DNA of 44,064 nucleotides from a virus (lineage: Duplodnaviria > Heunggongvirae > Uroviricota > Caudoviricetes), in IMG/VR virus record IMGVR_UViG_2690316161_000025, one strand, 5' to 3'. The first letter of the stretch is position 1; the number at the start of each line of letters is the position of its first letter. Positions 2,222 through 32,579 of the stretch are shown here, in pieces. The notes under the pieces were generated by a model that was not told the origin of the DNA, searched no databases, and saw only the letters and a program-made list of their open reading frames with translations. The translations under genes were made by a program, and so were the position numbers.

Positions 2222-2259
2222 TTAACGTTTAAACAAAATTTAATTACGAGGTTATTCAG

Positions 2260-3198: not shown

Positions 3199-3213
3199 GA
3201 AGGAGAAGAAATT

Positions 3214-3441: not shown

Positions 3442-3443
3442 CG

Positions 3444-3674: not shown

Positions 3675-3685
3675 GGTGAAACAAA

Positions 3686-4383: not shown

Positions 4384-4683
4384 ATGGTGGCTGACATGAA
4401 GTGTAATCGTAAGCGCTGGTCACGCGAAGACCGGGAATTTATCGAAGCCAACGTCGGGAAAATGACCGTTGAAGAAATGGCGGAAAAACTGAAAGTCGCC
4501 ACAACCGCCCTCCGGGCACATGCCAGAAGGCACGGAATATCATTGTGTATATACCGAATCAGTGAGCACGACAAATATTTGTGTCGTGAACTTTATAAAG
4601 AAGGGCTGGATATTCATGTCATTGCCCGAAAGATGGAATTAAGCAATCGTGCTGTATCCAGCATTGTATACAGCGGATATTAA
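4384..4683 (+). CDS. Early-region hypothetical protein (99 aa; alternative start 4396)
   Basis: ORF abutting previous stop (TGAATG); weak SD. Confidence 0.4.
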   Translation: MVADMKCNRKRWSREDREFIEANVGKMTVEEMAEKLKVATTALRAHARRHGISLCIYRISEHDKYLCRELYKEGLDIHVIARKMELSNRAVSSIVYSGY

Positions 4684-4702
4684 TTAACAGGAGCTTTAAT
4701 TT

Positions 4703-5227
4703 ATGGCTAAACCAGCAAAACGCATCAAAAGTGCCGCAGCGGCTTATGTGCCACAAAACCGCGATGCGGTGATTACCGATATTAAACGCATCGGGGATTT
4801 ACAGCGCGAAGCATCACGTCTGGAAACGGAAATGAATGATGCCATCGCGGAAATTACGGAGAAATTTGCGGCCCGGATTGCACCGATTAAAACCGATATT
4901 GAAACCCTTTCAAAAGGCGTTCAGGGATGGTGTGAAGCGAACCGCGACGAACTGACGAACGGCGGCAAAGTGAAGACGGCAAATCTTGTCACCGGCGATG
5001 TGTCATGGCGTCAACGCCCGCCATCAGTGAGTATTCGCGGCGTGGATGCCGTAATGGAAACGCTGGAGCGTCTTGGCCTGCAACGCTTTATTCGCACGAA
5101 GCAGGAAATCAACAAGGAGGCGATTTTACTGGAACCAAAAGCCGTCGCAGGTGTTGCCGGAATTACGGTTAAATCGGGAATTGAAGATTTTTCCATTATT
5201 CCGTTTGAACAGGAAGCAGGTATTTAA
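4703..5227 (+). CDS. gam: Gam, host-nuclease inhibitor / DNA-end binding protein (174 aa)
   Basis: ORF MAKPAKRIKSAAAAYVPQNRDAVITDIKRIGDLQREASRLE..., SD aggag upstream; matches Mu Gam. Confidence 0.9.
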   Translation: MAKPAKRIKSAAAAYVPQNRDAVITDIKRIGDLQREASRLETEMNDAIAEITEKFAARIAPIKTDIETLSKGVQGWCEANRDELTNGGKVKTANLVTGDVSWRQRPPSVSIRGVDAVMETLERLGLQRFIRTKQEINKEAILLEPKAVAGVAGITVKSGIEDFSIIPFEQEAGI

Positions 5228-5325
5228 TACCACCATTAATATTTAATTAATTCACATTCTTTTAATTATGGCGCGATGCGTCAGGGGATTGCTCGCGCCT
5301 GAAACAGATTACTGAGGAATAAAAC

Positions 5326-5856
5326 ATGGTTGATGCAAAAATTCTGAATGGTGTCAGCACATTATTACGGGCTTACGGACGCCTGACCTGCGGGGTTCTG
5401 GCTGAAAAAATGCAGATGCCATCCTCCGCAATGGTGTACTTCCTGCGTGATGCGGTTGATGCCGGAATGCTGACTGAACTTAATGGTTTTTACGACGTAC
5501 CGCGTCCCCGTACAGAGCAGCCTGTAAGACGAAACGCAACTGAGCAGTCTGCTGTTGATGATGCCGCGTGGTGTTCCTTCCGCCGCCCATTGCCCTGGCT
5601 GGAAGGCAATGCCATTCCGGCACTGGCAAAAGAATTTGCAACAGGCGTGCTGACCTGTGAATCCGTTCACATCGTTGCAGAAGTGGACAACAGAATGTGC
5701 GAACAGGGAATGCCCCGTTTTGTGATGGCTTATATCGATATCCGGCTGGGGCGTTTTATTTGCAGTTCCAGCGCCTGGAATATCACCGACCATGTACTGC
5801 GTTATCTCATTCTTGATTGTTCTCCGGCTCCCGCAGCGGTGCAGGAGGTGGCGTGA
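5326..5856 (+). CDS. Early-region hypothetical protein (176 aa)
   Basis: ORF with SD gagga upstream; operon context. Confidence 0.55.
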   Translation: MVDAKILNGVSTLLRAYGRLTCGVLAEKMQMPSSAMVYFLRDAVDAGMLTELNGFYDVPRPRTEQPVRRNATEQSAVDDAAWCSFRRPLPWLEGNAIPALAKEFATGVLTCESVHIVAEVDNRMCEQGMPRFVMAYIDIRLGRFICSSSAWNITDHVLRYLILDCSPAPAAVQEVA

Positions 5857-6386
5857 TGTTTTTTAAAACGTCAAATCCCACAGCACTGCTGGCATGGGAC
5901 CAGTTTATGGCGGACTGCCTGAAACTACGCGAAGAAGCCCGCCATCTTGATAAGGTTCTGGACTGTGGTTGCCGGTCAGTATTCAGTACAGGTATTGGTG
6001 GGCGTCATTTTCATGGTGTGAATTTTCCGGGGAATGAGCGCCCCTTCTCGCGGGAGCTGTGGACCGTACAACGGCCCGCATCAGGTAACAGTTGCAGGCC
6101 CAGAACTTCGTGGATACCTGCTCATCTCAGGGGGCAGGCAAGAGAGCTGGCGAAAATATGGCAGGAGAATATTCCGGTCACTTACGCCCGCACAGACGCT
6201 CTTTTACCCGCACTGGGACTGGATTTCAGCGCAACAATATTCGGGCCGCTCCAGTGGTTCCGTGTTGGTGATGTGATTTACGTCATGACGGGGATGACAC
6301 CCGCGCAAGGCCGCATGACTGAAATCCTTTCTGACGAATTTATCCGGGCGCAAAAACAGGCGGAGGTAACTAATGGAAAACAGTGA
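5856..6386 (+). CDS. Early-region hypothetical protein (about 176 aa from ATG 5856)
   Basis: ATG 5856 overlaps the upstream stop (TGATG) and has a strong SD gcaggaggtg; ORF track lists a longer 5817 start. Confidence 0.5.
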   Translation: MFFKTSNPTALLAWDQFMADCLKLREEARHLDKVLDCGCRSVFSTGIGGRHFHGVNFPGNERPFSRELWTVQRPASGNSCRPRTSWIPAHLRGQARELAKIWQENIPVTYARTDALLPALGLDFSATIFGPLQWFRVGDVIYVMTGMTPAQGRMTEILSDEFIRAQKQAEVTNGKQ

Positions 6387-6555
6387 AACATCGTATTCGT
6401 GGCTGGGGAAATTTACCACGGTGAAACAGGAATGCCCGACCTGCGGTAATGAATCCCCTGAATATCTGAAAGAGTGCCCTCATTGTGGCGGGCAGAAATG
6501 CAACCACTGTGATATGGGCGATGACACGGCGTGCATGAATTGTGAAGGTGAGTGA
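6373..6555 (+). CDS. Small zinc-ribbon protein (60 aa, CxxC x2 plus CxxC)
   Basis: ORF with CPTCGN...CPHCGG...CNHC...CMNC; SD ggagg upstream. Confidence 0.45.
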   Translation: MENSETSYSWLGKFTTVKQECPTCGNESPEYLKECPHCGGQKCNHCDMGDDTACMNCEGE

Positions 6556-6556
6556 T

Positions 6557-6865
6557 ATGAATAATGGTGTATTTTCAAAATCAGAAGAGCTTGCCGCCCT
6601 GCTGATTGCCGGTGGTTTGCCGAAAAAAGAAGTGCATGACTTTGTGAATTTTGTATATGAGACGTCTCATGAAAAAGCTATTGATGAGGTCATGGCGTAC
6701 CGGTTTGGCATTATTGCTGAGTCACTGAGTCCTCACTGGATTATTGAAAATCTCCGCGCTATTGCTGATGGCAACGATAAATCAGCAGCCGTTGCTGCAC
6801 TGGATGTGTTACGGCAAATGAGTCTGAAATTTTATCCTGAATTTATTCTGAGGGCCGCAAAATGA
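6557..6865 (+). CDS. Early-region hypothetical protein (102 aa)
   Basis: ATG 6557 just after upstream stop, SD gaaggtgag. Confidence 0.5.
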   Translation: MNNGVFSKSEELAALLIAGGLPKKEVHDFVNFVYETSHEKAIDEVMAYRFGIIAESLSPHWIIENLRAIADGNDKSAAVAALDVLRQMSLKFYPEFILRAAK

Positions 6866-9036: not shown

Positions 9037-9156
9037 ATGTACAGAAAATTCAGTGATGAATGTTTCGGGCCGTCCACGCTGATGAGTGCGATAAAAGTGA
9101 TTGCCCTTGTGGTTCTGATAACCATCAGTGCCGTGGTGTATCTTTCTGTCTGTTAA
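9037..9156 (+). CDS. Candidate 39-aa single-pass membrane peptide (not in ORF track)
   Basis: ATG 9037 with SD aagggg; MYRKFSDECFGPSTLMSAIKVIALVVLITISAVVYLSVC then TAA at 9154-9156. Confidence 0.3.
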   Translation: MYRKFSDECFGPSTLMSAIKVIALVVLITISAVVYLSVC

Positions 9157-9168
9157 CCGGGGGAAAAT

Positions 9169-9591
9169 ATGCAGCATGATTTATTTGAACACGATCCGGC
9201 AATTCGCCAGTTAATCGGACATATTGATAACATCCCGGCCCCGGAACTGGAATCACGCTGGCCCCGTTCGGTGGTTGATCTGATTGATGTTCTGGAAAAC
9301 GAACTGAAACGCCAGAACGTCAGCAATCCCCGTGAGCTTGCCCGTAAACAGGCCGTTGCCCTGTCCTGTTTTCTGGGCGGGCGGCAGTTTTACATCCCCT
9401 GCGGCGATACGATCCTGACCGCGTTACGCGACGATTTGCTTTACTGCCAGTTCAATGGTTGTAACATGGAAGAACTGCGTCGCCAGTATCGCCTGTCCCA
9501 GCCGCAGATCTACCAGATTATTGCCCGCCAGAGAAAGCTGCATACACGACGTCATCAGCCTGATCTGTTCTCACCTGAAAGCCAGAAATAA
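9169..9591 (+). CDS. C: C, late-gene transcriptional activator (140 aa)
   Basis: 140-aa ORF MQHDLFEHDPAIRQLIGHIDN...; paralogous to Mor; last gene of the middle operon. Confidence 0.9.
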   Translation: MQHDLFEHDPAIRQLIGHIDNIPAPELESRWPRSVVDLIDVLENELKRQNVSNPRELARKQAVALSCFLGGRQFYIPCGDTILTALRDDLLYCQFNGCNMEELRRQYRLSQPQIYQIIARQRKLHTRRHQPDLFSPESQK

Positions 9592-9614
9592 CCGGCATCC
9601 TGCCGGTTATTTCC
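9591..9614 (+). terminator. Probable terminator after C
   Basis: Hairpin accggca-tcc-tgccggt followed by T-rich tatttcc. Confidence 0.45.
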
Positions 9615-9682
9615 TGTCACCATAATCCCGCACCTGCCATCTGATTTTTTAGACTGCCATCAGAGCATTTTTTCAGGGAAGC
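9615..9682 (+). promoter_or_regulatory. Plys late promoter region (C-dependent), approximate
   Basis: Intergenic between C terminator and lys; contains tcccgcacct motif (9626-9635) shared with the I upstream region. Confidence 0.4.
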
Positions 9683-10201
9683 ATGATGGCGGGGATACCC
9701 AAAAAACTGAAAGCCGCACTGCTGGCGGCAACGATTGCCGGTGGCGGTGTGGGTGGTTATCAGGAAATGACCCGTCAGTCTCTGATCCATCTGGAAAATA
9801 TCGCTTATATGCCTTACCGCGATATTGCCGGTGTGCTTACGGTCTGTGTGGGACATACCGGGCCGGATATCGAAATGCGCCGTTACAGCCATGCGGAGTG
9901 TATGGCTCTTCTCGACGGTGATTTAAAACCGGTTTATGCGGCAATCGATCGTCTTGTCAGGGTGCCGCTGACGCCATATCAGAAAACGGCGCTGGCAACG
10001 TTTATTTTCAACACCGGTGTTACCGCATTCAGTAAATCAACGCTGCTGAAAAAACTCAATGCCGGTGATTACGCCGGAGCGCGTGACCAGATGGCCCGCT
10101 GGGTGTTTGCCGCAGGCCATAAATGGAAAGGACTGATGAACCGTCGCGAAGTGGAAATGGCTATCTGGAATATCAGGGGGGCGGATGACCTTCGCCAGTA
10201 A
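9683..10201 (+). CDS. lys: Endolysin with N-terminal signal-anchor-release (SAR) domain
   Basis: 172-aa ORF; N-terminal weakly hydrophobic Gly/Ala-rich segment LKAALLAATIAGGGVGGY, then lysozyme-like domain. Confidence 0.85.
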   Translation: MMAGIPKKLKAALLAATIAGGGVGGYQEMTRQSLIHLENIAYMPYRDIAGVLTVCVGHTGPDIEMRRYSHAECMALLDGDLKPVYAAIDRLVRVPLTPYQKTALATFIFNTGVTAFSKSTLLKKLNAGDYAGARDQMARWVFAAGHKWKGLMNRREVEMAIWNIRGADDLRQ

Positions 10202-10571
10202 AAGTTTACTGCTGGCAGCCGTGTTTGCCGCCGTTCTGTCCGGGGTGTTGTGGCACAGGCTGGACAGCACCCGCCACGATAACCAGACGCTGCGCCGTGA
10301 ATTACAGACGGAGCAACAGGCCCGCAACACGGCTGAATGGTTGTTACACGGTCAGGAACAGACGATGCAGGTATTTTCCACTATCCGTGCCGCAAATCGT
10401 GCCGCGCGGCTGGCAGACGAGACAGAACATCATGATGCAAAACAAAAAATTACAACCGCCATTACCGGTGACAATTGCAGCACTCGTCCTGTGCCTGCCG
10501 TTGCTGCTGACAGGTTGCGGGAACTCGAAAAACGCACCCGTGCCATCGGTGGTGATCCTGCCCGAAACTGA
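10185..10571 (+). CDS. Inner-membrane spanin component (i-spanin) candidate
   Basis: N-terminal TM segment SLLLAAVFAAVLSGVLW then charged, helical periplasmic region; located right after endolysin. Confidence 0.55.
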   Translation: MTFASKSLLLAAVFAAVLSGVLWHRLDSTRHDNQTLRRELQTEQQARNTAEWLLHGQEQTMQVFSTIRAANRAARLADETEHHDAKQKITTAITGDNCSTRPVPAVAADRLRELEKRTRAIGGDPARN

Positions 10572-10773
10572 TGCAGAACTGACGGAAGCAACGCCCGTTC
10601 CGCCCATGCCACAGCCCCTGACGTGGGGAGCATCCCTTCTCTGGAATGCTGACCTGTTGATGGCGCTCGGGCAGTGCAACCGCGACAAGGCATCAGTCCG
10701 GGAACAGGAGACCCGAAGGAAAGAAATTTATGAACGAAGACCAGAACCGGGCGGTGGCGCTGCTGCTCGCTGA
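10432..10773 (+). CDS. Outer-membrane lipoprotein spanin component (o-spanin) candidate, overlapping i-spanin in another frame
   Basis: Internal ATG 10432; signal peptide MMQNKKLQPPLPVTIAALVLCLPLLLTGC with lipobox LLTGC; Pro-rich mature part. Confidence 0.5.
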   Translation: MMQNKKLQPPLPVTIAALVLCLPLLLTGCGNSKNAPVPSVVILPETDAELTEATPVPPMPQPLTWGASLLWNADLLMALGQCNRDKASVREQETRRKEIYERRPEPGGGAAAR

Positions 10774-10924
10774 ACTCTGGCAGGGGGATACCCGTGATAT
10801 TCCCCGCCCGGCGGCGTATGACCCGCCTGTATTGTGTGCCGGTTGCGGTCGTGAGCTGCGGCCTGATGTGCTGAGACAGCAGCCGATGGCGAACTACTGC
10901 CACTGGTGCCGTGGAGCAGAATAA
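10730..10924 (+). CDS. Small Cys-containing protein (64 aa, CAGCG...CHWC)
   Basis: ORF with SD gaaggaaag; two Cys pairs suggest zinc ribbon. Confidence 0.4.
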   Translation: MNEDQNRAVALLLAELWQGDTRDIPRPAAYDPPVLCAGCGRELRPDVLRQQPMANYCHWCRGAE

Positions 10925-11223
10925 TGGATTTGATTTCAGTTTTAGCGTTATGGCCTTACCTGTTGCCTGTTGTGGCCGGTGGGGCCGTCTGGGCAATGCG
11001 TCGTAGTTTTGCCAGCACTGAGCGTGTGGAGCGTCTTGAAAACCGGATGACCGAAATGGAAACCCGCTACGCCAGCATCCCTGGCACAGAAGATGTACAC
11101 GAAATGCGCCTGCGAATTGCAGAGCTGTCCGGCGATATCCGGGTGCTGTCCCAGCGGGTGCAGTCATTTTCCCATCAACTGGAGCTGCTGCTTGAAAACG
11201 CAGTAAACCGGAGTAATTCATGA
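10924..11223 (+). CDS. Membrane-anchored coiled-coil protein, lysis-cassette associated
   Basis: ATG 10924 overlapping upstream stop; N-terminal TM MDLISVLALWPYLLPVVAGGAVWA then heptad-like helix. Confidence 0.45.
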   Translation: MDLISVLALWPYLLPVVAGGAVWAMRRSFASTERVERLENRMTEMETRYASIPGTEDVHEMRLRIAELSGDIRVLSQRVQSFSHQLELLLENAVNRSNS

Positions 11224-11510
11224 TTAACGATATTCTGACCGAAGACCGTCGTCTGGTCATCCTGCGTTCCCTGATGGACTGCAATAACGAAGCAAACGAA
11301 TCCATTCTTCAGGACTGTCTGGATGCATACGGACACAACGTTTCCCGCGATGTGGTTCGCGGCCAGATTGACTGGCTGGCAGAGCAGCAACTGGTCACCG
11401 TGGAAAACCTGCGCGGCTTTTATGTCGTAACGCTGACCTCCCGAGGTCAGGATGTGGCAGAAGGTCGTGCCCGCGTTGCCGGTGTCAAGCGTCCTCGTCC
11501 CCGTGCATGA
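11220..11510 (+). CDS. Hypothetical protein (96 aa), possibly winged-helix
   Basis: ORF with SD ccggag; immediately upstream of terminase genes. Confidence 0.45.
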   Translation: MINDILTEDRRLVILRSLMDCNNEANESILQDCLDAYGHNVSRDVVRGQIDWLAEQQLVTVENLRGFYVVTLTSRGQDVAEGRARVAGVKRPRPRA

Positions 11511-11521
11511 CAGGAGGCGTG

Positions 11522-12097
11522 ATGGACAGGAAAACACGGGGCCGGGCTTCAAAAGTGGATTTATTGCCGGAAAACGTACGTAAAACGCTGCATGAAATGC
11601 TGCGTGATAAAGCGATCCCACAGGCCCGCATTCTGGAAGAAATTAACGCACTGATTGAAGACGCTGGCCTGCCGGATGAGATGAAACTCTCCCGTTCCGG
11701 TCTGAACCGTTACGCGACGAACGTCGAGCAGGTAGGCCATAACCTGCGACAGATGCGTGAAATGACGTCAGCACTGACCGCAGAACTTGGCGACAAGCCA
11801 ATGGGAGAAACCACAAAGCTGATTCTGGAAATGGCCCGCAGCCAGCTTTTTAAGGCCATGATGCGGCAAATCGAAAACCCGGAATCTGACGTGGATATTG
11901 ACCTGCTGAAAAATGCCATGCTGGCGGCACAGCGTCTGGAATCCACGGCAATGTCCAGCCACCGGCGCGAGAAAGAAATCCGCCAGGCATTCGCAGAAGA
12001 AGCGGCAAACGCCGTCAGTGAAGAACTGCGCGGGCAGGATGGCATCAGCGAAGAGCTGGAGCAGCGTATCCGTGATGTGCTGCTGGGTAAGGCATGA
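11522..12097 (+). CDS. D: Terminase small subunit candidate (Mu D)
   Basis: ATG 11522 with strong SD caggaggcg (ORF track start 11507); position directly upstream of large terminase. Confidence 0.6.
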   Translation: MDRKTRGRASKVDLLPENVRKTLHEMLRDKAIPQARILEEINALIEDAGLPDEMKLSRSGLNRYATNVEQVGHNLRQMREMTSALTAELGDKPMGETTKLILEMARSQLFKAMMRQIENPESDVDIDLLKNAMLAAQRLESTAMSSHRREKEIRQAFAEEAANAVSEELRGQDGISEELEQRIRDVLLGKA

Positions 12098-12104
12098 GAG
12101 GGTT

Positions 12105-13760
12105 ATGAACACCAGAGAAAACAACCTTAAAGCCCTTCATGCGCCCCGCAAAATCAACCTGCGTGAGGAAGCCGAACTGCTCGGCGTGAATATCGTGACC
12201 GATATCGGTGAAGCACAGCCCCGCAATGAACCGGTTTTCCTGGGTTATCAGCGCCGCTGGTTTGAGGATGAAAGCCAGATTTGCATCGCTGAAAAATCCC
12301 GTCGTACCGGTCTGACATGGGCCGAAGCGGGCCGCAATGTCATGACGGCAGCAAAGCCGCGCCGCCGTGGCGGTCGCAACGTCTTTTATGTGGGTTCCCG
12401 TCAGGAAATGGCGCTGGAATATATCGCCGCCTGTGCCCTGTTTGCCCGCGCCTTTAACCAGCTGGCAAAGGCTGATGTCTGGGAGCAGACCTTCTGGGAC
12501 AGCGACAAAAAAGAAGAAATCCTCACTTATATGATCCGTTTCCCTAACAGCGGATTTAAGGTGCAGGCGCTGTCAAGCCGTCCGTCTAACCTGCGTGGTT
12601 TGCAGGGGGACGTGGTGATTGATGAGGCGGCATTTCATGAAGCCCTGGACGAACTCCTGAAAGCGGCTTTTGCTCTCACCATGTGGGGTGCCAACGTGCG
12701 GATCATATCGACACATAACGGCGTCGATAACCTGTTTAACCAGTACATTCAGGATGCGCGCGAGGGGCGCAAGGATTACAGCGTTCACCGCATCACGCTG
12801 GATGATGCCATCGCTGACGGGTTGTACCGACGTATCTGTTACGTCACGAATCAGCCGTGGTCGCCGGAAGCGGAAAAAGCCTGGCGTGATGGCCTGTACC
12901 GGAATGCGCCGAATAAAGAGAGTGCCGACGAGGAATACGGCTGCATTCCTAAAAAATCCGGGGGCGCTTATCTGTCACGCGTGCTGATTGAAGCCGCCAT
13001 GACGCCAGCGCGGGATATCCCGATTCTGCGTTTTGAAGCCCCGGACGATTTTGAATCGCTGACACCACAAATGCGCCACGGCATCGTTCAGGACTGGTGT
13101 GAACAGGAGCTGCTCCCGTTGCTCGATGCGCTGTCGCCGCTCAATAAACACGTACTGGGCGAAGACTTTGCACGCCGTGGCGACCTGTCGGTGTTTGTGC
13201 CGCTTGCCATCACTCCTGACTTACGCAAACGCGAATGTTTCCGCGTGGAGCTGCGTAATGTGACCTATGACCAGCAGCGACAAATCCTTTTATTCATTCT
13301 GTCCCGTTTGCCCCGTTTTACCGGCGCTGCATTTGATGCCACCGGTAACGGCGGTTATCTGGCAGAAGCCGCCCGTCTGATTTATGGCCCGGAGATGATC
13401 GACTGTGTGAATCTGACCGCATCCTGGTATCAGGAGTGGATGCCAAAACTGAAAGGCGAGTTTGAAGCGCAGAACATCACGATTGCCCGGCACCAGACCA
13501 CACTTGATGACCTGCTCCACATCAAGGTGGACAAAGGTATTCCGCAGATTGATAAGGGGCGCACAAAAGATGAAGGCGGTAAAGGCCGACGACATGGCGA
13601 CTTTGCCGTGGCGCTCTGTATGGCTGTCAGGGCGTCTTATATGAATGGTTTTGTTATCGACGAGGACAGCATACAGGCGCTGCCACCACGCCACCGTGGT
13701 GATGATGTTGATAACGATGATTTTGATGATTATCACCAGTTTGAACGAGGGGGCTGGTAA
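12105..13760 (+). CDS. E: Terminase large subunit (Mu E), about 551 aa
   Basis: ATG 12105 (MNTRENNLKAL...) with SD gagaggg; large ORF preceding the portal gene; ORF track extends upstream to 11913 in the same frame. Confidence 0.8.
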   Translation: MNTRENNLKALHAPRKINLREEAELLGVNIVTDIGEAQPRNEPVFLGYQRRWFEDESQICIAEKSRRTGLTWAEAGRNVMTAAKPRRRGGRNVFYVGSRQEMALEYIAACALFARAFNQLAKADVWEQTFWDSDKKEEILTYMIRFPNSGFKVQALSSRPSNLRGLQGDVVIDEAAFHEALDELLKAAFALTMWGANVRIISTHNGVDNLFNQYIQDAREGRKDYSVHRITLDDAIADGLYRRICYVTNQPWSPEAEKAWRDGLYRNAPNKESADEEYGCIPKKSGGAYLSRVLIEAAMTPARDIPILRFEAPDDFESLTPQMRHGIVQDWCEQELLPLLDALSPLNKHVLGEDFARRGDLSVFVPLAITPDLRKRECFRVELRNVTYDQQRQILLFILSRLPRFTGAAFDATGNGGYLAEAARLIYGPEMIDCVNLTASWYQEWMPKLKGEFEAQNITIARHQTTLDDLLHIKVDKGIPQIDKGRTKDEGGKGRRHGDFAVALCMAVRASYMNGFVIDEDSIQALPPRHRGDDVDNDDFDDYHQFERGGW

Positions 13761-15298
13761 TGGGCCGTATTCTGGATATTTCCGGGCAGCCGTTTGATTT
13801 TGACGATGAAATGCAGACCCGCAGCGATGAGCTGGCAATGGTCATGAAGCGCACGCAGGAGCATCCTTCCAGTGGTGTGACGCCAAACCGGGCCGCGCAG
13901 ATGCTGCGTGATGCCGAACGCGGTGATCTGACAGCACAGGCTGACCTGGCCTTTGATATGGAAGAAAAGGACACCCACCTTTTTTCCGAACTGAGCAAAC
14001 GCCGCCTTGCCATTCAGGCGCTGGAATGGCGCATCGCTCCGGCACGTGATGCCAGCGCACAGGAGAAAAAAGACGCTGACATGCTGAATGAATATCTGCA
14101 TGATGCGGCGTGGTTTGAAGATGCCCTGTTTGATGCCGGTGATGCCATTCTCAAGGGTTATTCCATGCAGGAGATTGAATGGGGCTGGCTGGGAAAAATG
14201 CGCGTGCCGGTGGCGCTGCATCATCGCGATCCGGCGCTGTTCTGCGCGAACCCCGATAATCTGAACGAATTACGTTTGCGTGATACGTCTTATCACGGGC
14301 TGGAGCTGCAACCATTCGGCTGGTTTATGCACCGGGCCAAATCCCGCACCGGGTACGTTGGCACCAATGGCCTTGTGCGCACGCTTATCTGGCCTTTTAT
14401 TTTTAAAAACTATTCCGTGCGTGATTTTGCGGAGTTCCTGGAAATTTACGGACTCCCCATGCGCGTCGGTAAATATCCGACCGGCTCCACAAACCGCGAA
14501 AAAGCCACGCTGATGCAGGCCGTGATGGATATCGGGCGACGTGCCGGTGGCATTATTCCGATGGGGATGACGCTGGATTTTCAGAGCGCCGCAGATGGTC
14601 AGTCTGATCCCTTTATGGCGATGATTGGCTGGGCAGAAAAAGCGATTTCAAAAGCCATTCTGGGCGGCACCCTGACCACAGAGGCTGGCGATAAAGGTGC
14701 ACGGTCGCTGGGTGAAGTGCATGATGAGGTTCGCCGGGAAATCCGTAACGCGGATGTGGGCCAGCTTGCCCGCAGTATTAACCGTGACCTGATTTATCCC
14801 CTGCTGGCACTGAACAGTGACAGCACCATTGATATTAACCGCCTGCCGGGCATTGTATTTGATACCAGTGAAGCGGGTGATATTACGGCACTGTCTGACG
14901 CCATTCCGAAACTGGCGGCGGGAATGCGTATTCCGGTCTCCTGGATACAGGAAAAACTTCATATTCCACAGCCGGTCGGTGATGAAGCCGTGTTTACTGC
15001 TCAACCGGTCGTCATGGATAACGGTCCGCAGAAAGAGGCCGCATTATCCGCTGAAGATATCCCGCAGGAGGATGATATCGACCGGATGGGCGTCTCACCG
15101 GAAGACTGGCAGCGTTCGGTTGATCCCCTGCTGAAACCCGTCATTTTTTCTGTGCTGAAAGATGGCCCGGAAGCCGCCATGAACAAAGCTGCTTCATTAT
15201 ATCCGCAGATGGATGATGCAGAACTTATCGACATGCTGACCCGTGCCATTTTTGTTGCCGATATATGGGGGCGTCTGGATGCCGCAGCAGACCATTGA
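13760..15298 (+). CDS. H: Portal protein (Mu H), 512 aa
   Basis: Large ORF following terminase with ATGA-type overlap; size and position match Mu portal. Confidence 0.85.
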   Translation: MGRILDISGQPFDFDDEMQTRSDELAMVMKRTQEHPSSGVTPNRAAQMLRDAERGDLTAQADLAFDMEEKDTHLFSELSKRRLAIQALEWRIAPARDASAQEKKDADMLNEYLHDAAWFEDALFDAGDAILKGYSMQEIEWGWLGKMRVPVALHHRDPALFCANPDNLNELRLRDTSYHGLELQPFGWFMHRAKSRTGYVGTNGLVRTLIWPFIFKNYSVRDFAEFLEIYGLPMRVGKYPTGSTNREKATLMQAVMDIGRRAGGIIPMGMTLDFQSAADGQSDPFMAMIGWAEKAISKAILGGTLTTEAGDKGARSLGEVHDEVRREIRNADVGQLARSINRDLIYPLLALNSDSTIDINRLPGIVFDTSEAGDITALSDAIPKLAAGMRIPVSWIQEKLHIPQPVGDEAVFTAQPVVMDNGPQKEAALSAEDIPQEDDIDRMGVSPEDWQRSVDPLLKPVIFSVLKDGPEAAMNKAASLYPQMDDAELIDMLTRAIFVADIWGRLDAAADH

Positions 15299-16598
15299 TC
15301 TGGCGTATGCCGCACGCCTCCCGCCAAAGGAGGCTGTCGCGTATTTCCGCGCCAAAGGCTACAATATCACCTGGAACTGGTACGAACAACTGGCAGACGC
15401 GCACGCACGCGCCTTTACCGTTGCCAAAGCCACCCGGATGGATGTACTGACCACAATCCGTGAGGAAGTGGAGCGGGCTGTCAGTGAAGGCATCACCCGT
15501 GAGGAATTTACCCGCACACTGGCCCCCCGGCTGCAAAAACTCGGATGGTGGGGAAAACAAATCATCGTGGATGCAGACGGAAACGCAAAGGTAATCGAGC
15601 TGGGCAGTCCGCGTCGTCTGGCAACCATTTATAACGTCAATACCCGTACGGCGTATGGGGCAGGACGTTATGCGCAGATGATGAATACCGCCGATTTGTA
15701 CCCGTACTGGCAGTACATTGCCGTTATGGATGGCAGAACACGCCCGGAACATGCGCGGCTGCACAATATGGTTTTCCGGTATGACGACATTTTCTGGCAG
15801 ACGCATTACCCGCCCAATGGCTGGAACTGCCGCTGTCGCGTCCGGGCGCTGTCTGCGGCCCGCATGAAAGAACTGGGGTTACAGGTCAGTTATGGTGCGT
15901 CATTCATGAATACCCGCGAAGTGGATGCCGGTACGGATGAAAGCACCGGCGAGATTTTCCGCACATCGTCAACCACGTTTGACAACGGTCGGGTAAAAAT
16001 GACGCCGGATGTGGGCTGGTCATATAACCCCGGTTCGGCGGCATTTGGTACGGATCAGGCACTGATTCGAAAACTGGTGGAAATTCGCGACGCGCAGTTG
16101 CGTGAGCAGGTTGTTCAGACGCTGAATAACAGCCGGGAGCGTCAGCTTGCTTTTTCCCTCTGGCTTAAACGCCTGGCAGGATTACGTCAGACCGGTCATG
16201 AAATCCGGGCACTGGGTTTTATGACGGAATCGGTAGCTGAAGCCGTACATCAGCGCACCGGGAATATGCCAGCCCGTCTGCTTGTGATGAACGGGAAAAG
16301 TCTGGCGACCACTGCTGATGCCGCCCTGAAACCGGAAGATTTACAGCGTCTGCCGTCGCTGATGGCAAAACCACAGGCGGTATTGTGGGACAGGGAGAAC
16401 CACCAGTTGCTGTATGTTGTGGCAACCCGTGACGGCATGGCCCGGATTGTGGTCAGAACATCACAGACAGTCGGCAGGCAGAATGACCGTGCGGATGTGC
16501 TGGTCAGTATCAGCCGCGTATCTGCACAGTCGCTTGAAGCCGCGATTGCTGACGGGATGATTGACGTACTGGAGGGGCATGTGGAGGTGAATAAGTGA
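15279..16598 (+). CDS. F: Head morphogenesis protein (Mu F), virion protein
   Basis: ATG 15279 (MPQQTIDLAYAARL...); follows portal as in Mu. Confidence 0.75.
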   Translation: MPQQTIDLAYAARLPPKEAVAYFRAKGYNITWNWYEQLADAHARAFTVAKATRMDVLTTIREEVERAVSEGITREEFTRTLAPRLQKLGWWGKQIIVDADGNAKVIELGSPRRLATIYNVNTRTAYGAGRYAQMMNTADLYPYWQYIAVMDGRTRPEHARLHNMVFRYDDIFWQTHYPPNGWNCRCRVRALSAARMKELGLQVSYGASFMNTREVDAGTDESTGEIFRTSSTTFDNGRVKMTPDVGWSYNPGSAAFGTDQALIRKLVEIRDAQLREQVVQTLNNSRERQLAFSLWLKRLAGLRQTGHEIRALGFMTESVAEAVHQRTGNMPARLLVMNGKSLATTADAALKPEDLQRLPSLMAKPQAVLWDRENHQLLYVVATRDGMARIVVRTSQTVGRQNDRADVLVSISRVSAQSLEAAIADGMIDVLEGHVEVNK

Positions 16599-16606
16599 GT
16601 CTTGAT

Positions 16607-17065
16607 ATGAACGTTGCCGTGGATGTGCGACGTATTCAGCTTGCACTGGATGAACTGGGAACCGTTACACGTGACCGCGCCATTCCCCGTGTGATGGCTG
16701 CGGCGCTGCTGTCATCCACGGAACAGGCATTTGAACGGCAGGCAGACCCGGATACAGGGAAAGGCTGGGAAGCGTGGAGCGATTCGTGGCTGGCATGGCG
16801 TCAGGATCATGGTTTTGTTCCGGGCAGTATCCTTACCCTGCATGGCGATCTGGCACGCAGCATTACCACCGATTATGGACAGGATTATGCCCTGATTGGT
16901 TCGCCAAAAATTTATGCTGCCATTCATCAGTGGGGCGGTACACCCGATATGGCACCCCGCCCGGCAGGCGTTCCTGCTCGTCCTTATATGGGGCTGGATA
17001 AGACCGGGGAACAGGAAATTTTTGATGCCATCAGAAAACGCGTCAGCGTCGCTCTGAGGCAATAA
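16607..17065 (+). CDS. G: Virion morphogenesis protein (Mu G / gp31)
   Basis: ORF MNVAVDVRRIQLALDELG...; ATG 16607 (GTG 16595 alternative). Confidence 0.7.
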   Translation: MNVAVDVRRIQLALDELGTVTRDRAIPRVMAAALLSSTEQAFERQADPDTGKGWEAWSDSWLAWRQDHGFVPGSILTLHGDLARSITTDYGQDYALIGSPKIYAAIHQWGGTPDMAPRPAGVPARPYMGLDKTGEQEIFDAIRKRVSVALRQ

Positions 17066-17261
17066 ACAGAATCAGGCATAAAATCAGCCGCACAGATTTT
17101 TTAAAACGCGCCACGGGATTTTTAAACCGGTATTTAACGGTGTATGAATCCCGTTTTATCTTCCTTCCACTTTCTTTCTCCATTACTCAAATAGCATAAC
17201 CCCAGATTTTCCCGCACCTCCCGCAAACTGACTGCTCACAAACCATGATGAGCAGCAGGAC
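17066..17261. other. G-I intergenic region: probable location of the Mu strong gyrase site (SGS) and the C-dependent PI promoter
   Basis: 196-bp non-coding gap near the centre of the Mu genome; contains cccgcacct motif at 17211-17219. Confidence 0.4.
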
Positions 17262-18347
17262 ATGAAAAAACACGCGATTGGCATTGCCGCATTGAGTGCG
17301 CTGTCCATTGACGATGACGGCTGGTGCCAGCTATTGCCTGCCGGTCATTTCAGTGCCCGTGATGGTCGTCCGTTTGATGTGACAGGTGGTCAGGGGTGGT
17401 TCATCGACGGTGAGATTGCCGGGCGTCTGGTTGAAGGCGTTCGCGCGCTCAACCAGGACGTGCTGATTGATTACGAGCATAACCAGCTACGTAAGGACAA
17501 AGGATTACCCCCGGAACAACTCGTCGCGGCTGGCTGGTTTAACGCCGATGAAATGCAGTGGCGTGAAGGTGAAGGATTATTTATCCACCCACGCTGGACG
17601 GCGGCGGCACAGCAGCGCATCGATGACGGTGAATTTGGTTATCTCTCTGCGGTTTTTCCGTATGACACCGCCACCGGTGCGGTGCTGCAAATCCGCCTTG
17701 CTGCGCTGACCAATGACCCCGGTGCCACCGGCATGAAAAAGCTGACCGCACTGGCGGCAGACCTTCCCGACATCCTTCAACAGGAGAACAAACCCATGAA
17801 TGAAACGCTGCGCAAGCTGCTTGCGCGTCTTGGGGTGACGGTCCCCGAAAATGCAGACATCACCGATGAACAGGCCAGCGCGGCCCTGAGTGCGCTTGAT
17901 GCGCTCGAAACAGATGCCGGAAAAGTGGCGTCGTTATCCGCCGAACTGGAAAAGGCACAGAAAGCCGCCGTTGACCTGACGAAATACGTCCCGGTGGAAA
18001 GCTACAACGCCCTGCGTGATGAACTGGCACAGGCGACTGCACAAAGCGCCACAGCCAGCCTGAGCGCCGTTCTGGACAAGGCGGAACAGGAAGGCCGCAT
18101 TTTCAAAAGCGAACGTGCCTATCTGGAACAGCTTGGCGGTCAGATTGGCGTGGCGGCACTGTCGGCACAGCTTGAGAAAAAACAGCCCATCGCTGCGTTA
18201 TCTGCCATGCAGACCACCACAGCGAAAATCCCGTCGCAGGAAAAAACGGCTGTGGCGGTGCTGTCTGCTGATGAACAGGCAGCAGTGAAGGCGCTCGGCA
18301 TTACAGAGGCTGAGTATCTGAAAATGAAACAGGAACAAGAAAAATGA
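17262..18347 (+). CDS. I: Prohead protease/scaffold (Mu I; internally initiated scaffold Z shares the C-terminal part)
   Basis: 361-aa ORF; Ala/Gln-rich helical C-terminal half typical of scaffold; directly upstream of major capsid gene. Confidence 0.8.
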   Translation: MKKHAIGIAALSALSIDDDGWCQLLPAGHFSARDGRPFDVTGGQGWFIDGEIAGRLVEGVRALNQDVLIDYEHNQLRKDKGLPPEQLVAAGWFNADEMQWREGEGLFIHPRWTAAAQQRIDDGEFGYLSAVFPYDTATGAVLQIRLAALTNDPGATGMKKLTALAADLPDILQQENKPMNETLRKLLARLGVTVPENADITDEQASAALSALDALETDAGKVASLSAELEKAQKAAVDLTKYVPVESYNALRDELAQATAQSATASLSAVLDKAEQEGRIFKSERAYLEQLGGQIGVAALSAQLEKKQPIAALSAMQTTTAKIPSQEKTAVAVLSADEQAAVKALGITEAEYLKMKQEQEK

Positions 18348-19261
18348 TTGTCACCCCGGCATCCATTAAAGCCCTGATGACCTCCTGGCGTAAGGATTTT
18401 CAGGGCGGTCTTGAAGACGCCCCGTCGCAGTACAGCAAAATTGCAATGGTGGTGAACTCTTCCACCCGCAGTAATACCTATGGCTGGCTGGGTAAATTCC
18501 CGACCCTGAAAGAATGGGTGGGTAAGCGAACCATTCAGCAAATGGAAGCGCATGGCTACTCCATCGCCAATAAAACGTTTGAAGGCACCGTGGGTATTTC
18601 CCGTGATGACTTCGAGGATGACAATCTGGGTATTTATGCGCCGATTTTTCAGGAGATGGGCCGTTCTGCGGCAGTTCAGCCGGATGAGCTGATTTTTAAA
18701 CTTCTGAAAGATGGCTTTACCCAGCCCTGCTATGACGGTCAGAACTTCTTCGACAAGGAGCATCCGGTATATCCGAATGTGGACGGCACGGGCAGCGCGG
18801 TTAATACCTCCAACATCGTTGAGCAGGACAGCTTCAGCGGTCTGCCATTCTATCTGCTGGACTGCTCCCGCGCAGTCAAACCGCTGATTTTCCAGGAGCG
18901 CCGCAAACCGGAACTGGTCGCACGTACCCGTATCGATGACGACCACGTTTTTATGGATAACGAGTTCCTGTTTGGTGCCAGCGCCCGCCGTGCTGCCGGT
19001 TACGGCTTCTGGCAGATGGCTGTCGCGGTAAAAGGCGATCTGACGCTGGATAACCTCTGGAAGGGCTGGCAACTGATGCGATCTTTTGAAGGTGATGGCG
19101 GTAAGAAGCTGGGCCTGAAGCCGACGCATATCGTTGTACCGGTCGGGCTGGAAAAAGCCGCAGAGCAACTGCTTAACCGTGAACTGTTCGCGGATGGCAA
19201 TACCACCGTCTCCAACGAGATGAAGGGCAAGCTGCAACTGGTTGTCGCTGACTACCTGTAA
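18344..19261 (+). CDS. T: Major capsid protein (Mu T), 305 aa
   Basis: ATGA overlap with I; 305-aa ORF followed by a strong terminator. Confidence 0.85.
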   Translation: MIVTPASIKALMTSWRKDFQGGLEDAPSQYSKIAMVVNSSTRSNTYGWLGKFPTLKEWVGKRTIQQMEAHGYSIANKTFEGTVGISRDDFEDDNLGIYAPIFQEMGRSAAVQPDELIFKLLKDGFTQPCYDGQNFFDKEHPVYPNVDGTGSAVNTSNIVEQDSFSGLPFYLLDCSRAVKPLIFQERRKPELVARTRIDDDHVFMDNEFLFGASARRAAGYGFWQMAVAVKGDLTLDNLWKGWQLMRSFEGDGGKKLGLKPTHIVVPVGLEKAAEQLLNRELFADGNTTVSNEMKGKLQLVVADYL

Positions 19262-19270
19262 CCGTCATTA

Positions 19271-19294
19271 AAAGGCGGTTCAGACCGCCTTTTA
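19271..19294 (+). terminator. Rho-independent terminator after T
   Basis: aaaaggcggt-tcag-accgcctttt perfect hairpin with flanking A/T runs (bidirectional-capable). Confidence 0.6.
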
Positions 19295-19327
19295 ACCTGA
19301 TTTAAAGGAAAAGGAGGAGCATGTGTT

Positions 19328-19738
19328 ATGTCAGGCACTTCGCTTAATTCACAATGGCTGGACACTTCTCGCATCACTTGCACGGCGATTATTAAATGCC
19401 TTCGTCCGGTCTACCGCCGCGCCGGAATCGCCTTTACACGTGGCGAAAACACCGTGGAAGTCACCGAAGAACAACTGGCGATCATTCGTGCCGACAGCGT
19501 GCTGTCTGTGGTATCTGCATCGTCAGCAGAAACGCTCGCTGAGGCTGGGGGGCTGGACGTTCTGGGTGTGGGCGATCTGAACGCCCGTATCCGTGCGACC
19601 GTTGCCGGTCTGGATAAGGCAAACCCGGAACACTTTACCGCAGGAGGAGAACCCAAAGTGAAAGCCCTCAGTGCGGCGCTGGGGGAACCGGTAAGCAGCG
19701 CGCAAATCAAAGCGGCGCTGGCTGAGGCGGATGCATGA
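19328..19738 (+). CDS. Head-associated hypothetical protein (136 aa)
   Basis: ATG 19328 ten nt after SD aaggaggag. Confidence 0.55.
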   Translation: MSGTSLNSQWLDTSRITCTAIIKCLRPVYRRAGIAFTRGENTVEVTEEQLAIIRADSVLSVVSASSAETLAEAGGLDVLGVGDLNARIRATVAGLDKANPEHFTAGGEPKVKALSAALGEPVSSAQIKAALAEADA

Positions 19739-25416: not shown

Positions 25417-26904
25417 ATGTTTGAAGATGCTTTAAATGCCGTTAATGCTGTCCGGGATAAAATCAGCGGTGGTAAGAAAACAACCGGCAAAGGCACGTTT
25501 CGTAACGTGCCGTTTCTCGTCATCGAGGAGCAAAAACAGGCTGGCGGACGTCGCCTGGTTAAACGCGAGTACCCGTTACGTGATACCGGCGGCGTCAATG
25601 ACCTGGGGAAAAAGCTTCGCTCCCGTACATTCAGCGCCTGCATTCTGAACAGCAACGCAGAAACAGCCAGAGATGAAGCGGGTGCGCTGATGGATGCTCT
25701 TGATGCTCCGGGTAGCGGTGAGCTGGTACATCCTGATTTCGGCACTGTGGACGTCATGGTGGATTCATGGGAATGCCGCACTAAAGCGGATGAACTGAAT
25801 TATTACGCGTTCACCGTTACCGTTTATCCGTCGTTGCAGGATACTGCCCCGGACTCAGAGACAGACACCAGTGCAGCCGTACCGGCACAGGCCGTTGCTG
25901 TAACCGGTTCTCTGGGAGATACGCTGTCCTCTGTCTGGCAGACCGTAAAAGATGGCACTGCGGCGGCAACCGCCGTGATGGAAGCTGTAACCGGTGTCAT
26001 CGATGATATCAGTGATGCGGTGGACAATCTGGGGGTTACGCAGACTGTCAGCGGTCTGATGGGATCGCTTTCTGCGATGAAAGGCTCTGTGACCAGCCTG
26101 ATTAACCAGCCTGCCATGCTGGCCTCCTCGCTGATGGGGGCGCTGTCCGGCGTTTCATCGTTATGCGATACCCGGACAGCATTTTCCACATGGAACCGTC
26201 TGGCGCAGCGATTCGAACGTCGCCATGCCGCCACCGCAGGCAGACAGGGGACAATCACAACCTCGTACAACAGTCCGGTTGCAGAAAAAAATATTGCCAC
26301 ACTGAACTACGTCATGCTGGCAGCAGCACAGACATACCGGGCGGAGGCAGCAAGCCAGGCACTGACTGCGGCACTGGATTTCAGTCGCCGGATGGATAAT
26401 GCCGCCCGTGCACCTGTACTGGATGCCCCGTCCACCACAACCGGCACAGCCAGCGGGGCCAGCAGCACATCCGCTACCGTCACACAGGGACAGTTACAGT
26501 TAACTGCCATAACCCCGGACGGCGGCTTTTCACAGGTATCCTTTTCAGACAGTGGTACAGCCACGCCCCCGGTATTTGAAAGTGTGTCCGATATCGGAAA
26601 AACAGCCGCCATGCTGGGGGCAGCGCTGGATACCGTCATTCTGACGGCATCTGAGCAGGGCTTTTCGACAGACAGCGTTCAGCTTACGCAACTGCGTCTG
26701 CTGGTTGTTGCCGACCTGGAAAAACGCGGGCTGCAACTGGCAGGCAGTGAAACGCACCGCCTGCCGGAGACGATGCCTGCAATGGTGGCTCTGTACCGTT
26801 ACACAGGAAACAGCCGGAACTGGCAACGGCTGGCCCGCAGGAACGGTATCAGCAACCCGTTGTTTGTTCCCGGTGGTGTCAGTATTGAGGTGATTAATGA
26901 GTAA
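25417..26904 (+). CDS. N: DNA circularisation protein (Mu N), 495 aa
   Basis: 495-aa ORF following tape measure; Ser/Thr/Ala-rich. Confidence 0.75.
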
Positions 26905-32022: not shown

Positions 32023-32023
32023 C

Positions 32024-32551: not shown

Positions 32552-32556
32552 AAATT

Positions 32557-32576
32557 AAGGCCCGATAGCGGGCCTT
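32557..32576. terminator. Bidirectional hairpin between convergent U and U'
   Basis: aaggccc-gatagc-gggcctt; A/T run on the U' side. Confidence 0.45.
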
Positions 32577-32579
32577 GTC

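What the first reader, a model, noticed from the sequence alone, without database searches (positions are those of the whole stretch)
17066..17261. Central non-coding gap between G and I: candidate strong gyrase site plus late promoter
This is the longest intergenic stretch among the structural genes and lies near the geometric centre of the prophage. Mu is known to carry a strong gyrase-binding site at its centre that promotes synapsis of the distant ends during replicative transposition; this gap is the likely location. The same gap must also house the I-operon promoter.
Basis: partly seen in the sequence, partly recalled or inferred. Interest (0 to 1): 0.35.

Follow-up and report, generated by a model that had tools for sequence, protein, structure and literature searches.

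The report
Phage Mu gyrase site and I promoter

Summary
The gap is real. G stops at 17065, I starts at 17262, and the 196 nt between them are the longest intergenic stretch in the late region. It is 194/196 identical to phage Mu and 100% identical to Shigella phage SfMu. The Mu GenBank record annotates three features in this interval: the gyrase cut site (window 17085^17086), a predicted terminator (17114-17159) and the late promoter P_I (17183-17249).

A published 133-bp Mu SGS fragment maps to 17018-17150 (131/133). A published 87-bp I-promoter template that gives C-dependent transcription in vitro maps to 17170-17256 (86/87).

Using the published SGS anatomy, the cleavage centre lies between 17083 and 17084:
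- Dispensable left arm: 17019-17058, inside the G coding sequence.
- Core: 17059-17108.
- Right arm: 17109-17168 (essential part 17109-17148). It is identical to Mu except at 17167.

The SGS and P_I together fill the gap. The site lies at about 48.9% of an estimated 37.2-kb prophage.

About 47 bp of the roughly 150-bp SGS lie inside G. The essential right arm also forms a terminator-like hairpin.

Nothing here is new: already known, low interest.

The parts
17019..17058 (.). SGS left arm (-65..-26 from the cleavage centre). It lies inside the 3' end of gene G and is reported to be dispensable.
   Evidence: Anatomy from PMC6463007 section 4.3, mapped onto the window through the GC dinucleotides at -8/-7 and +7/+8 (sequence, mapping). 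One difference from Mu, at 17049.
17059..17108 (.). SGS core, the gate (G) segment (-25..+25). The cleavage centre is between 17083 and 17084, with a 4-bp stagger AATC at 17082-17085. The GenBank 'cut site' falls at 17085^17086.
   Evidence: Mu annotation. The centring of the published 133-mer agrees. Only this centre places GC at top-strand -8/-7 (17076-77) and +7/+8 (17090-91), as described. The segment is 100% identical to Mu.
17109..17168 (.). SGS right arm (+26..+85). The first 40 nt (17109-17148) are the essential part, with phased bending signals; this is the arm that wraps a GyrA C-terminal domain and presents the T segment.
   Evidence: literature. Identical to Mu except at 17167. No variable site at 17090-17166 among 10 close relatives. 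Three phased T-tract/A-tract/G blocks are conserved in 8 diverged lineages.
17113..17162 (+). Terminator-like RNA hairpin (17113-17154) followed by UUUUAUCU. It is the presumed end of the lys-to-G late transcript and overlaps the essential SGS right arm.
   Evidence: TransTermHP terminator annotated in AF083977 at the equivalent 17114-17159. Folds at -19.8 kcal/mol, z -3.25 and -2.82 in two different frames. A hairpin plus U-tract is also present in two diverged relatives. A simple terminator scan missed it because its limit on loop length is exceeded. Prediction only.
17170..17256 (+). Late promoter P_I, dependent on the Mu C activator. C-binding region about 17185-17203 (ACTCAAATAGCATAACCCC), -10 hexamer CAAACT at 17224-17229, no -35 hexamer, inferred transcription start about 17236, and leader with ribosome-binding site at 17250-17259.
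   Evidence: AF083977 'late promoter, PMID 2522923' maps to 17183-17249. The I-promoter oligonucleotide of PMC4461284 maps to 17170-17256 at 86/87. The CATAACCCC box and the -10 hexamer line up with Plys, PP and Pmom of the same window. No sigma-70 consensus promoter was found, as expected for an activator-dependent promoter.
16595..17065 (+). Gene G (virion morphogenesis / neck protein). Its last 47 nt overlap the SGS.
17262..18347 (+). Gene I (head maturation protease, with the nested scaffold gene Z), the first gene of the P_I transcript.

Best explanation
The interval is the ortholog of the phage Mu G-I intergenic region and carries two known cis-acting elements placed back to back.

(a) The strong gyrase site (SGS). 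It spans about 150 bp (window 17019-17168) and is cleaved around 17082-17086. Host DNA gyrase binds it with unusually high affinity. The right arm (17109-17168) wraps around a GyrA C-terminal domain and supplies the T segment, which makes supercoiling highly processive. Because the site sits at the centre of the 37-kb prophage, the supercoiled loop that grows from it brings the two Mu ends together. This promotes transpososome assembly and rapid replicative transposition after induction. It also keeps the prophage as a separate chromosomal domain.

(b) The C-dependent late promoter P_I (17170-17256). Host sigma-70 RNA polymerase binds here but needs a dimer of the Mu C protein, bound around -43.5 at the ..CATAACCCC.. 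element, to form an open complex and transcribe I and the following head genes.

A hairpin within the right arm probably also terminates the upstream lys-to-G late transcript.

Shown here: sequence identity, coordinates, conservation, and the predicted RNA fold of the hairpin. Inferred from published work on Mu: gyrase binding and cleavage, the effect on end synapsis, and C dependence. Predicted only: termination.
For: - The gap is 194/196 identical to Mu and 100% identical to SfMu over 17030-17261.
- GenBank Mu annotates a gyrase cut site, a terminator and a late promoter in the same 196 nt.
- The published 133-bp Mu SGS maps to 17018-17150 at 131/133.
- The published I-promoter template maps to 17170-17256 at 86/87.
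- The SGS anatomy and the essential right arm are described.
- Among 10 close relatives, 10 of the 196 gap positions vary, but none of the 77 positions at 17090-17166 does.
- Relatives in other genera, whose I proteins are 51-71% identical, still keep a gap of about 200 nt (691 nt in Edwardsiella). It carries three T-tract/A-tract/G blocks spaced about 21 and about 11 nt apart, aligned with window 17099-17141.
- The four late promoters of the window share the CATAACCCC box and aligned -10 hexamers.
- The region corresponding to the C activator gene (9169-9591) lies in the stretch that is 98% identical to Mu.
- The site lies at 48.9% of the estimated prophage length.
Against: - No experiment exists on this particular prophage, so function rests on near-identity to Mu.
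- Two sequence-only tests of my own did not single the site out. A GC/AT-pattern correlation with the published gyrase consensus ranked it 342nd of 87,864 placements (z 2.7). A 10-11-nt AT periodicity score put the right arm at the 86th percentile. The real position weight matrix was not available.
- The prophage left end is outside the window, so centrality is an estimate.
- The single promoter difference from Mu (17183, G to T, about -53) and the right-arm difference (17167, +84) are untested. Both lie outside the parts reported as essential.
Confidence: 0.95

Rival explanations
1. The gap is not non-coding. It would encode a small protein: either the + strand frame annotated as '31.5' in phage D108 (window 17071-17199), or the - strand ORF annotated in Mu_3F6 (window 17043-17183, 46 aa).
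For: D108 annotates a 42-aa CDS '31.5' here and Mu_3F6 annotates a 46-aa antisense CDS. Both frames are open in the window.
Against: The '31.5' frame begins with ATC in both D108 and the window and has no ATG, GTG or TTG start. Neither peptide matches a PHROG family; the best E-value is 0.27. The 82%-identical relative PEC422 has a 1-nt insertion opposite window 17144/17145, which shifts both frames. The fully curated Mu record annotates no CDS here. The antisense ORF would also overlap the end of G.
Confidence: 0.03
2. The sequence is the SGS by descent, but it does not act as a synapsis aid in this host. Possible reasons are that the prophage is defective or rearranged, or that the site now serves only as terminator and promoter spacer.
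For: The window shows an unusual 8,120-bp direct duplication that starts inside the invertible G segment boundary and includes host DNA, so this locus has either been rearranged or been misassembled. The left end and the repressor region are not visible. One search shows that the SGS alone is not sufficient, because Mu ends, MuB and host proteins are also needed.
Against: The first prophage copy is collinear with Mu from ner to attR, at 97-99% identity with intact ORFs. The duplication lies to the right of the gixL site of that copy and does not move the SGS relative to its attR. The core and the essential right arm are identical to Mu.
Confidence: 0.08
3. The conserved right-arm sequence is maintained mainly as an RNA terminator hairpin for the lys-to-G operon, and gyrase binding is secondary.
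For: The hairpin at 17113-17154 folds at -19.8 kcal/mol (z -3.25 and -2.82) and is followed by UUUUAUCU. A terminator is predicted there in AF083977. Hairpins followed by U-tracts occur at the same place in PEC422 and the O157 Sp18-like prophage, with different sequences.
Against: Genetic and biochemical work shows that the right arm is essential for gyrase binding, cleavage and Mu replication. Cryo-EM shows it wrapped on the GyrA C-terminal domain. What is conserved across eight lineages is the phased T/A-tract blocks, not a common stem. The PEC422 fold is no better than shuffled sequence (z -0.86). The two roles are not mutually exclusive.
Confidence: 0.05

Closest known systems
Phage Mu strong gyrase site (SGS; Pato, Howe and Higgins 1990; Oram et al. 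2006)
   Same: Same location (G-I junction, centre of the genome) and the same sequence: 148/150 over the defined left arm, core and right arm, with the core and the essential right arm identical. The annotated cut site is the same.
   Different: Two substitutions: 17049 in the dispensable left arm and 17167 at +84. The host prophage is a Mu/SfMu mosaic rather than Mu itself.
Mu late promoter P_I (C-dependent; Margolin et al. 1989; Swapna et al. 2015)
   Same: Same position upstream of I, the same -10 hexamer and CATAACCCC box, and 86/87 identity with the fragment shown to give C-dependent transcription in vitro.
   Different: A G to T change at 17183 (about -53), just outside the -52..-34 region shown to matter in Plys. 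SfMu and several other relatives share the T.
SGS of Mu-like prophages (for example Sp18 of E. coli O157:H7 Sakai, the only heterologous site reported to support Mu replication)
   Same: An O157:H7 Mu-like prophage keeps a 176-nt G-I gap with a recognisable right-arm core, GATTTTCTAACCTGTATTTAACGG, matching window 17117-17140. The review reports that the Sakai site is functional.
   Different: The rest of that gap cannot be aligned to the window by BLAST. The window's site is the Mu type proper.
Other strong gyrase sites (pSC101 par, pBR322 site, REP/BIME elements)
   Same: All are preferred gyrase binding and cleavage sites that match a long degenerate motif with periodic GC/AT arms.
   Different: They have unrelated sequences, and none could replace the Mu SGS for Mu replication. 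The Mu site stands out by its extended right arm.

Membership tests
Mu strong gyrase site (SGS) | Sequence correspondence to the experimentally defined roughly 150-bp site (left arm, core, right arm) | tested here: met
   131/133 to the published 133-mer. 148/150 to GenBank Mu over 17019-17168, and identical from 17050 to 17166.
Mu strong gyrase site (SGS) | Location between genes G and I, at the centre of the Mu genome | tested here: met
   The cut centre is 18 nt after the G stop codon. It lies at 48.9% of an estimated 37,157-bp prophage. The left end is inferred, because it is not in the window.
Mu strong gyrase site (SGS) | Right arm with an extended set of phased anisotropic bending signals | tested here: met
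   The essential right arm is identical to Mu. T-tract/A-tract/G blocks spaced about 21 and about 11 nt apart are conserved in 8 lineages. My own generic periodicity and consensus-pattern scores were not discriminating.
Mu strong gyrase site (SGS) | A single strong quinolone-induced gyrase cleavage with a 4-bp stagger at the site | not testable with these tools
   Known for Mu in vitro and in vivo. It needs an experiment on this DNA.
Mu strong gyrase site (SGS) | Deletion delays Mu replication and end synapsis after induction | not testable with these tools
   Known for Mu.
C-dependent Mu late promoter (P_I) | A recognisable -10 hexamer without a -35 hexamer | tested here: met
   CAATCT-type hexamer CAAACT at 17224-17229 aligns with TAGACT, TATCCT and TAAGAT of Plys, PP and Pmom. 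No sigma-70 consensus promoter was found in 16500-17800. Family definition.
C-dependent Mu late promoter (P_I) | A C-binding element centred near -43.5 (the -52..-34 region) | tested here: met
   GCATAACCCC at 17194-17203 aligns with the same box in the other three late promoters. It is also conserved in the 82%-identical relative PEC422.
C-dependent Mu late promoter (P_I) | The activator gene C is present in the same element | tested here: met
   ORF at 9169-9591 (140 aa), at the position of Mu C (9963-10385), within the stretch that is 98% identical to Mu. The protein was not compared separately.
C-dependent Mu late promoter (P_I) | C-dependent transcription start upstream of I | not testable with these tools
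   Shown for Mu by S1 mapping and by in vitro transcription from a fragment that is 86/87 identical to the window.
Intrinsic (Rho-independent) terminator | A stable G+C-containing hairpin immediately followed by a U-tract | tested here: inconclusive
   Hairpin of -19.8 kcal/mol, z about -3, followed by UUUUAUCU, and predicted by TransTermHP in the Mu record. The stem is long and interrupted. The simple scan missed it. No 3'-end data were found.

The most novel reading that the evidence does not exclude
The essential right arm of the SGS is a dual-use sequence. As double-stranded DNA it is the gyrase-wrapping arm. As RNA it is the intrinsic terminator of the lys-to-G late operon. The two constraints together would explain why this 77-nt stretch is invariant among close relatives, and why diverged Mu-like prophages keep a hairpin plus U-tract at the same place. 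I found no discussion of this overlap in the papers read; the Mu record only lists both features side by side.
Probability: 0.35. Interest if true: 0.3.

Novelty: already known. Interest (0 to 1): 0.1.

Why it matters
The Mu SGS is the strongest gyrase site known and a standard substrate for single-molecule and cryo-EM work on gyrase. It is also the model for how a mobile element uses host supercoiling to pair ends that lie 37 kb apart. Finding it intact in this prophage mainly confirms that the element is a Mu-type transposable phage with its cis-acting replication aid and its late promoter in place. It adds no new biology. The modest extra value is a precise coordinate map for this window, and a view of natural variation: the right arm is invariant in close relatives, and phased blocks are conserved across genera.

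Tried and rejected
- The position weight matrix of the Topo-Seq gyrase motif (Sutormin 2018, table DS10) was cut off in the stored supplement, so the published scoring could not be reproduced.
- As a substitute I correlated the GC/AT pattern of every 133-nt placement in the window with the published consensus. The SGS scored z 2.7 but ranked only 342nd of 87,864. This is too crude to be evidence either way.
- A Fourier score for 10-11-nt AT periodicity put the right arm at the 86th percentile, which is also not discriminating.
- The primary SGS papers (PMC55030, PMC94100, PMC438558, PMC1347280) are not held. The anatomy was therefore taken from later open-access papers that summarise them.
- Searching the paper library for the site's sequence string found nothing.
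- I first read the C at window-equivalent 17087 in the published 133-mer as a nuB up-mutation. The description of nuB1 and nuB103 (transitions at +/-3) does not match a G to C change at +4, so that reading was dropped and the difference is unexplained.
- The exact scissile bonds: candidate 4-bp staggers within 17082-17090 were weighed. The one centred at 17083|17084 is the only one that fits the GC bend positions and the centring of the 133-mer. GenBank's 17085^17086 is then the right-hand cut.
- Small-ORF readings of the gap were rejected.
- The Rfam search found nothing.

Full report
**Observation**

The sequence and the ORF list show a + strand ORF at 16595-17065 and another at 17262-18347, with 196 nt (17066-17261) between them. 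A megablast of 16600-17700 against phage genomes returned 13 Mu-type phages at 98.4-99.9% identity. Shigella phage SfMu was the best hit and Mu itself scored 98.7%. The two ORFs are therefore Mu genes G and I. In the fully annotated Mu record the G-I gap (17860-18055, also 196 nt) is the longest interval between annotated coding sequences in the whole genome.

**What is annotated there in Mu**

Record AF083977 lists four features in these 196 nt:
- a 'gyrase cut site' at 17879^17880;
- a TransTermHP terminator at 17908-17953;
- a 'late promoter, PMID 2522923' at 17977-18043;
- the ribosome-binding site of I.

In this region the Mu coordinate equals the window coordinate plus 794. These features therefore fall at window 17085^17086, 17114-17159, 17183-17249 and 17250-17252. 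The pairwise alignment shows two differences from Mu within the gap, at 17167 (C for T) and 17183 (T for G). There is one more difference just upstream, in G, at 17049. SfMu is 100% identical over 17030-17261.

**Direct comparison with published experimental fragments**

The 133-bp 'Mu SGS' DNA used for gyrase binding and supercoiling assays by Sutormin et al. (PMC6379681, supplementary table S2) aligns without gaps to window 17018-17150, with 131/133 matches. One mismatch is the 17049 substitution. The other is at 17087, where the published oligonucleotide has C while both GenBank Mu and the window have G.

The I-promoter insert used by Swapna et al. for C-dependent in vitro transcription (PMC4461284, Table 1) aligns to 17170-17256 with 86/87 matches. 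The only difference is at 17183.

**Anatomy of the gyrase site in window coordinates**

Rovinskiy et al. (PMC6463007, section 4.3) summarise the Pato laboratory's dissection, with the centre of cleavage set to 0:
- The left arm spans -65 to -26 and can be replaced.
- The gate segment spans -25 to +25. It has two sharp bends, at GC steps at +7/+8 on the top strand and -7/-8 on the bottom strand.
- The right arm is protected from +26 to +85, and its first 40 nt are essential.

In the window, GC steps 14 nt apart occur at 17076-77 and 17090-91. This fixes the centre between 17083 and 17084 and the 4-bp stagger at 17082-17085 (AATC). The same register follows from the centring of the 133-mer against the 133-nt consensus in the same table. 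GenBank's 17085^17086 is then the right-hand scission.

It follows that the left arm is 17019-17058, the core is 17059-17108 and the right arm is 17109-17168 (essential part 17109-17148). The left arm and the first 7 nt of the core lie inside gene G. Everything reported as essential lies in the gap and is identical to Mu. The SGS ends at 17168 and the tested promoter fragment starts at 17170, so the gap is completely filled by the two elements.

**How it works (from the literature, not tested here)**

- Gyrase binds this site more tightly than any other known site and supercoils processively from it.
- Deleting it delays Mu replication by about 100 minutes. The block is at cleavage and strand transfer of the Mu ends, that is, at transpososome assembly.
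- The site works best at the centre of the genome.
- It is also needed to keep the prophage as a closed chromosomal domain with its ends close together. For this it requires other Mu sequences and MuB.
- Cryo-EM of gyrase on a 217-bp Mu SGS fragment shows the right arm wrapped around one GyrA C-terminal domain and presenting the T segment. AT steps face the protein and GC steps face outward.
- The right arm is the deformable arm, and removing it abolishes the preference.

**Centrality**

BLAST against Mu shows window 1 = Mu 1099 (the ner start) and window 36059 = Mu 36717 (the right end). The junction of the right end with host DNA is visible at 36059. If the missing left part is 1,098 bp as in Mu, the prophage is about 37,157 bp. 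The cut site is then at 48.9%, compared with 48.7% in Mu.

**Natural variation**

I aligned the window with nine close relatives: Mu, D108, Yersinia phage vB_YpM_5, Mu_3F6, PhiR68_1 and four E. coli prophages. I also included one relative at 82% identity, PEC422. Among the ten close sequences, 10 of the 196 gap positions vary. Five cluster at 17068-17089 around the cut site, and none falls in 17090-17166. If the 10 variable sites were spread evenly, a chosen 77-nt stretch would be free of them with probability about 0.007. This is a post hoc figure but is consistent with constraint on the right arm.

The site is rare in E. coli, occurring in 41 of 5,426 complete genomes at 97% identity or more. 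A more sensitive search found three genomes at 80-90% identity and 229 where only the G coding part aligns. The latter are the O157-type Mu-like prophages.

PEC422 keeps a 201-nt gap and the O157-type prophage keeps a 176-nt gap. The O157-type gap retains GATTTTCTAACCTGTATTTAACGG, which matches window 17117-17140. According to the review, the Sakai O157 Mu-like prophage site was the only heterologous site able to support Mu replication.

A search of one genome per species with the I protein found seven further loci. They are in Kluyvera, Erwinia, Apirhabdus, Edwardsiella and an unnamed enterobacterium, with 51-71% protein identity. Six have G-I gaps of about 207-286 nt by a rough measure, and the Edwardsiella gap is 691 nt. 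An alignment of eight lineages shows that almost nothing is conserved except three blocks of the form T-tract, A-tract, G. These align with window 17099-17108, 17119-17130 and 17132-17141, spaced about 21 and 11 nt apart, which is two helical turns and one. This matches the 'phased bending signals' described for the right arm.

**The promoter**

The four Mu late promoters were located in the window: Plys at 9609-9675, P_I at 17183-17249, PP at 26496-26562 and Pmom at 35035-35101. Without any gaps they line up on a CATAACCCC-like box and on -10 hexamers: TAGACT, CAAACT, TATCCT and TAAGAT.

Jiang and Howe define the class as follows:
- -10 hexamers are present and -35 hexamers are absent.
- C binds a 16-bp imperfect dyad centred at -43.5.
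- In Plys, the -52 to -34 region is required.

With the -10 hexamer at 17224-17229, the start is inferred near 17236 and the C site near 17185-17203. The substitution at 17183 then lies at about -53, just outside the required region. A consensus scan found no sigma-70 promoter in 16500-17800, as expected for an activator-dependent promoter. Swapna et al. found that at P_I the polymerase binds without C, and C acts at the isomerisation step. The region corresponding to the C gene lies at 9169-9591.

**The terminator**

The RNA of 17100-17175 folds into a hairpin at 17113-17154 (-19.8 kcal/mol; z -3.25 and z -2.82 in a different frame), followed by UUUUAUCU. The Mu record predicts a terminator at the same place. 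The simple scan missed it because its loop limit is exceeded.

Hairpins followed by U-rich runs also occur in the O157-type gap (z -2.2, with a GC-rich outer stem and UUUGUAUUUUU) and, weakly, in PEC422 (z -0.9). I found no 3'-end mapping, so termination remains a prediction. The hairpin lies almost exactly in the essential part of the SGS right arm. This overlap is the only mildly new point, and it is scored as the 'novel case'.

**Rivals**

Two phage records annotate small ORFs in the gap: D108 '31.5' on the + strand and an antisense ORF in Mu_3F6. The evidence against both is as follows:
- The first starts with ATC and has no canonical start codon.
- Neither has a family match.
- A 1-nt insertion in PEC422 shifts both frames.
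- The curated Mu record has no CDS here.

No Rfam family matches the region.

**Comparison and verdict**

This is the Mu SGS and P_I themselves, in a prophage that is a mosaic of Mu and SfMu. All membership features that can be tested by sequence are met. The biochemical and genetic features can only be carried over from Mu. Novelty: already known. Interest: low.

Noticed in passing
window 31169-35944 and 39289-44064: There is an exact 4,776-nt direct repeat with a period of 8,120 nt. The right part of the prophage (G segment, gin, com/mom) recurs after attR and 3.2 kb of host DNA (pqiC, pqiB, truncated pqiA). The pattern fits a tandem duplication of 31169-39288. The host|Mu junction at 39288/39289 lies inside the left half of the gixL inversion site (TTATCC|AAAACCTCGGTTT), 6 nt from the Gin crossover. 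Native pqiA shows no gix-like sequence there. It is either a real rearrangement or an assembly artefact at the invertible segment.
   Followed up: partly
window 36059: This is the junction of the Mu right end (..CGTGCGCCGCTTCA) with host DNA, between rmf and pqiC of E. coli/Shigella. The window begins at the ner start codon, so attL and the repressor gene are not included.
   Followed up: yes
window 1-36059: The prophage is a mosaic. It is about 97.4% identical to Mu over 1-6566 and 99.2% identical to SfMu over 9038-19738. The variable tail-fibre region (about 31200-34300) is only about 79-90% identical to either. Window 6567-6858 has no counterpart in Mu.
   Followed up: partly
window 17087: The 133-bp 'Mu SGS' oligonucleotide of Sutormin et al. 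2018 has C at this position (+4 from the cleavage centre). GenBank Mu, the window and all ten relatives aligned have G. The change does not match the nuB1 or nuB103 mutations as described in PMC6463007.
   Followed up: partly
L016-L022 (Kluyvera, Erwinia, Apirhabdus, Edwardsiella, unnamed Enterobacteriaceae), upstream of position 1201: Mu-like prophages of other genera keep a G-I gap of roughly 200-290 nt, with three phased T-tract/A-tract/G blocks. The Edwardsiella anguillarum gap is 691 nt, so something extra has been inserted between the SGS-like blocks and I.
   Followed up: partly
L005 1065-1145 (E. coli O157:H7 FRIK2533 Mu-like prophage): RefSeq annotates a 'tRNA-OTHER' on the minus strand between the F and G homologues of the O157-type Mu-like prophage.
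   Followed up: no
window 17071-17199 (+) and 17043-17183 (-): Some phage records annotate small ORFs inside the SGS and terminator region (D108 gene 31.5, with an ATC start; an antisense CDS in Mu_3F6). They look like over-annotation.
   Followed up: yes
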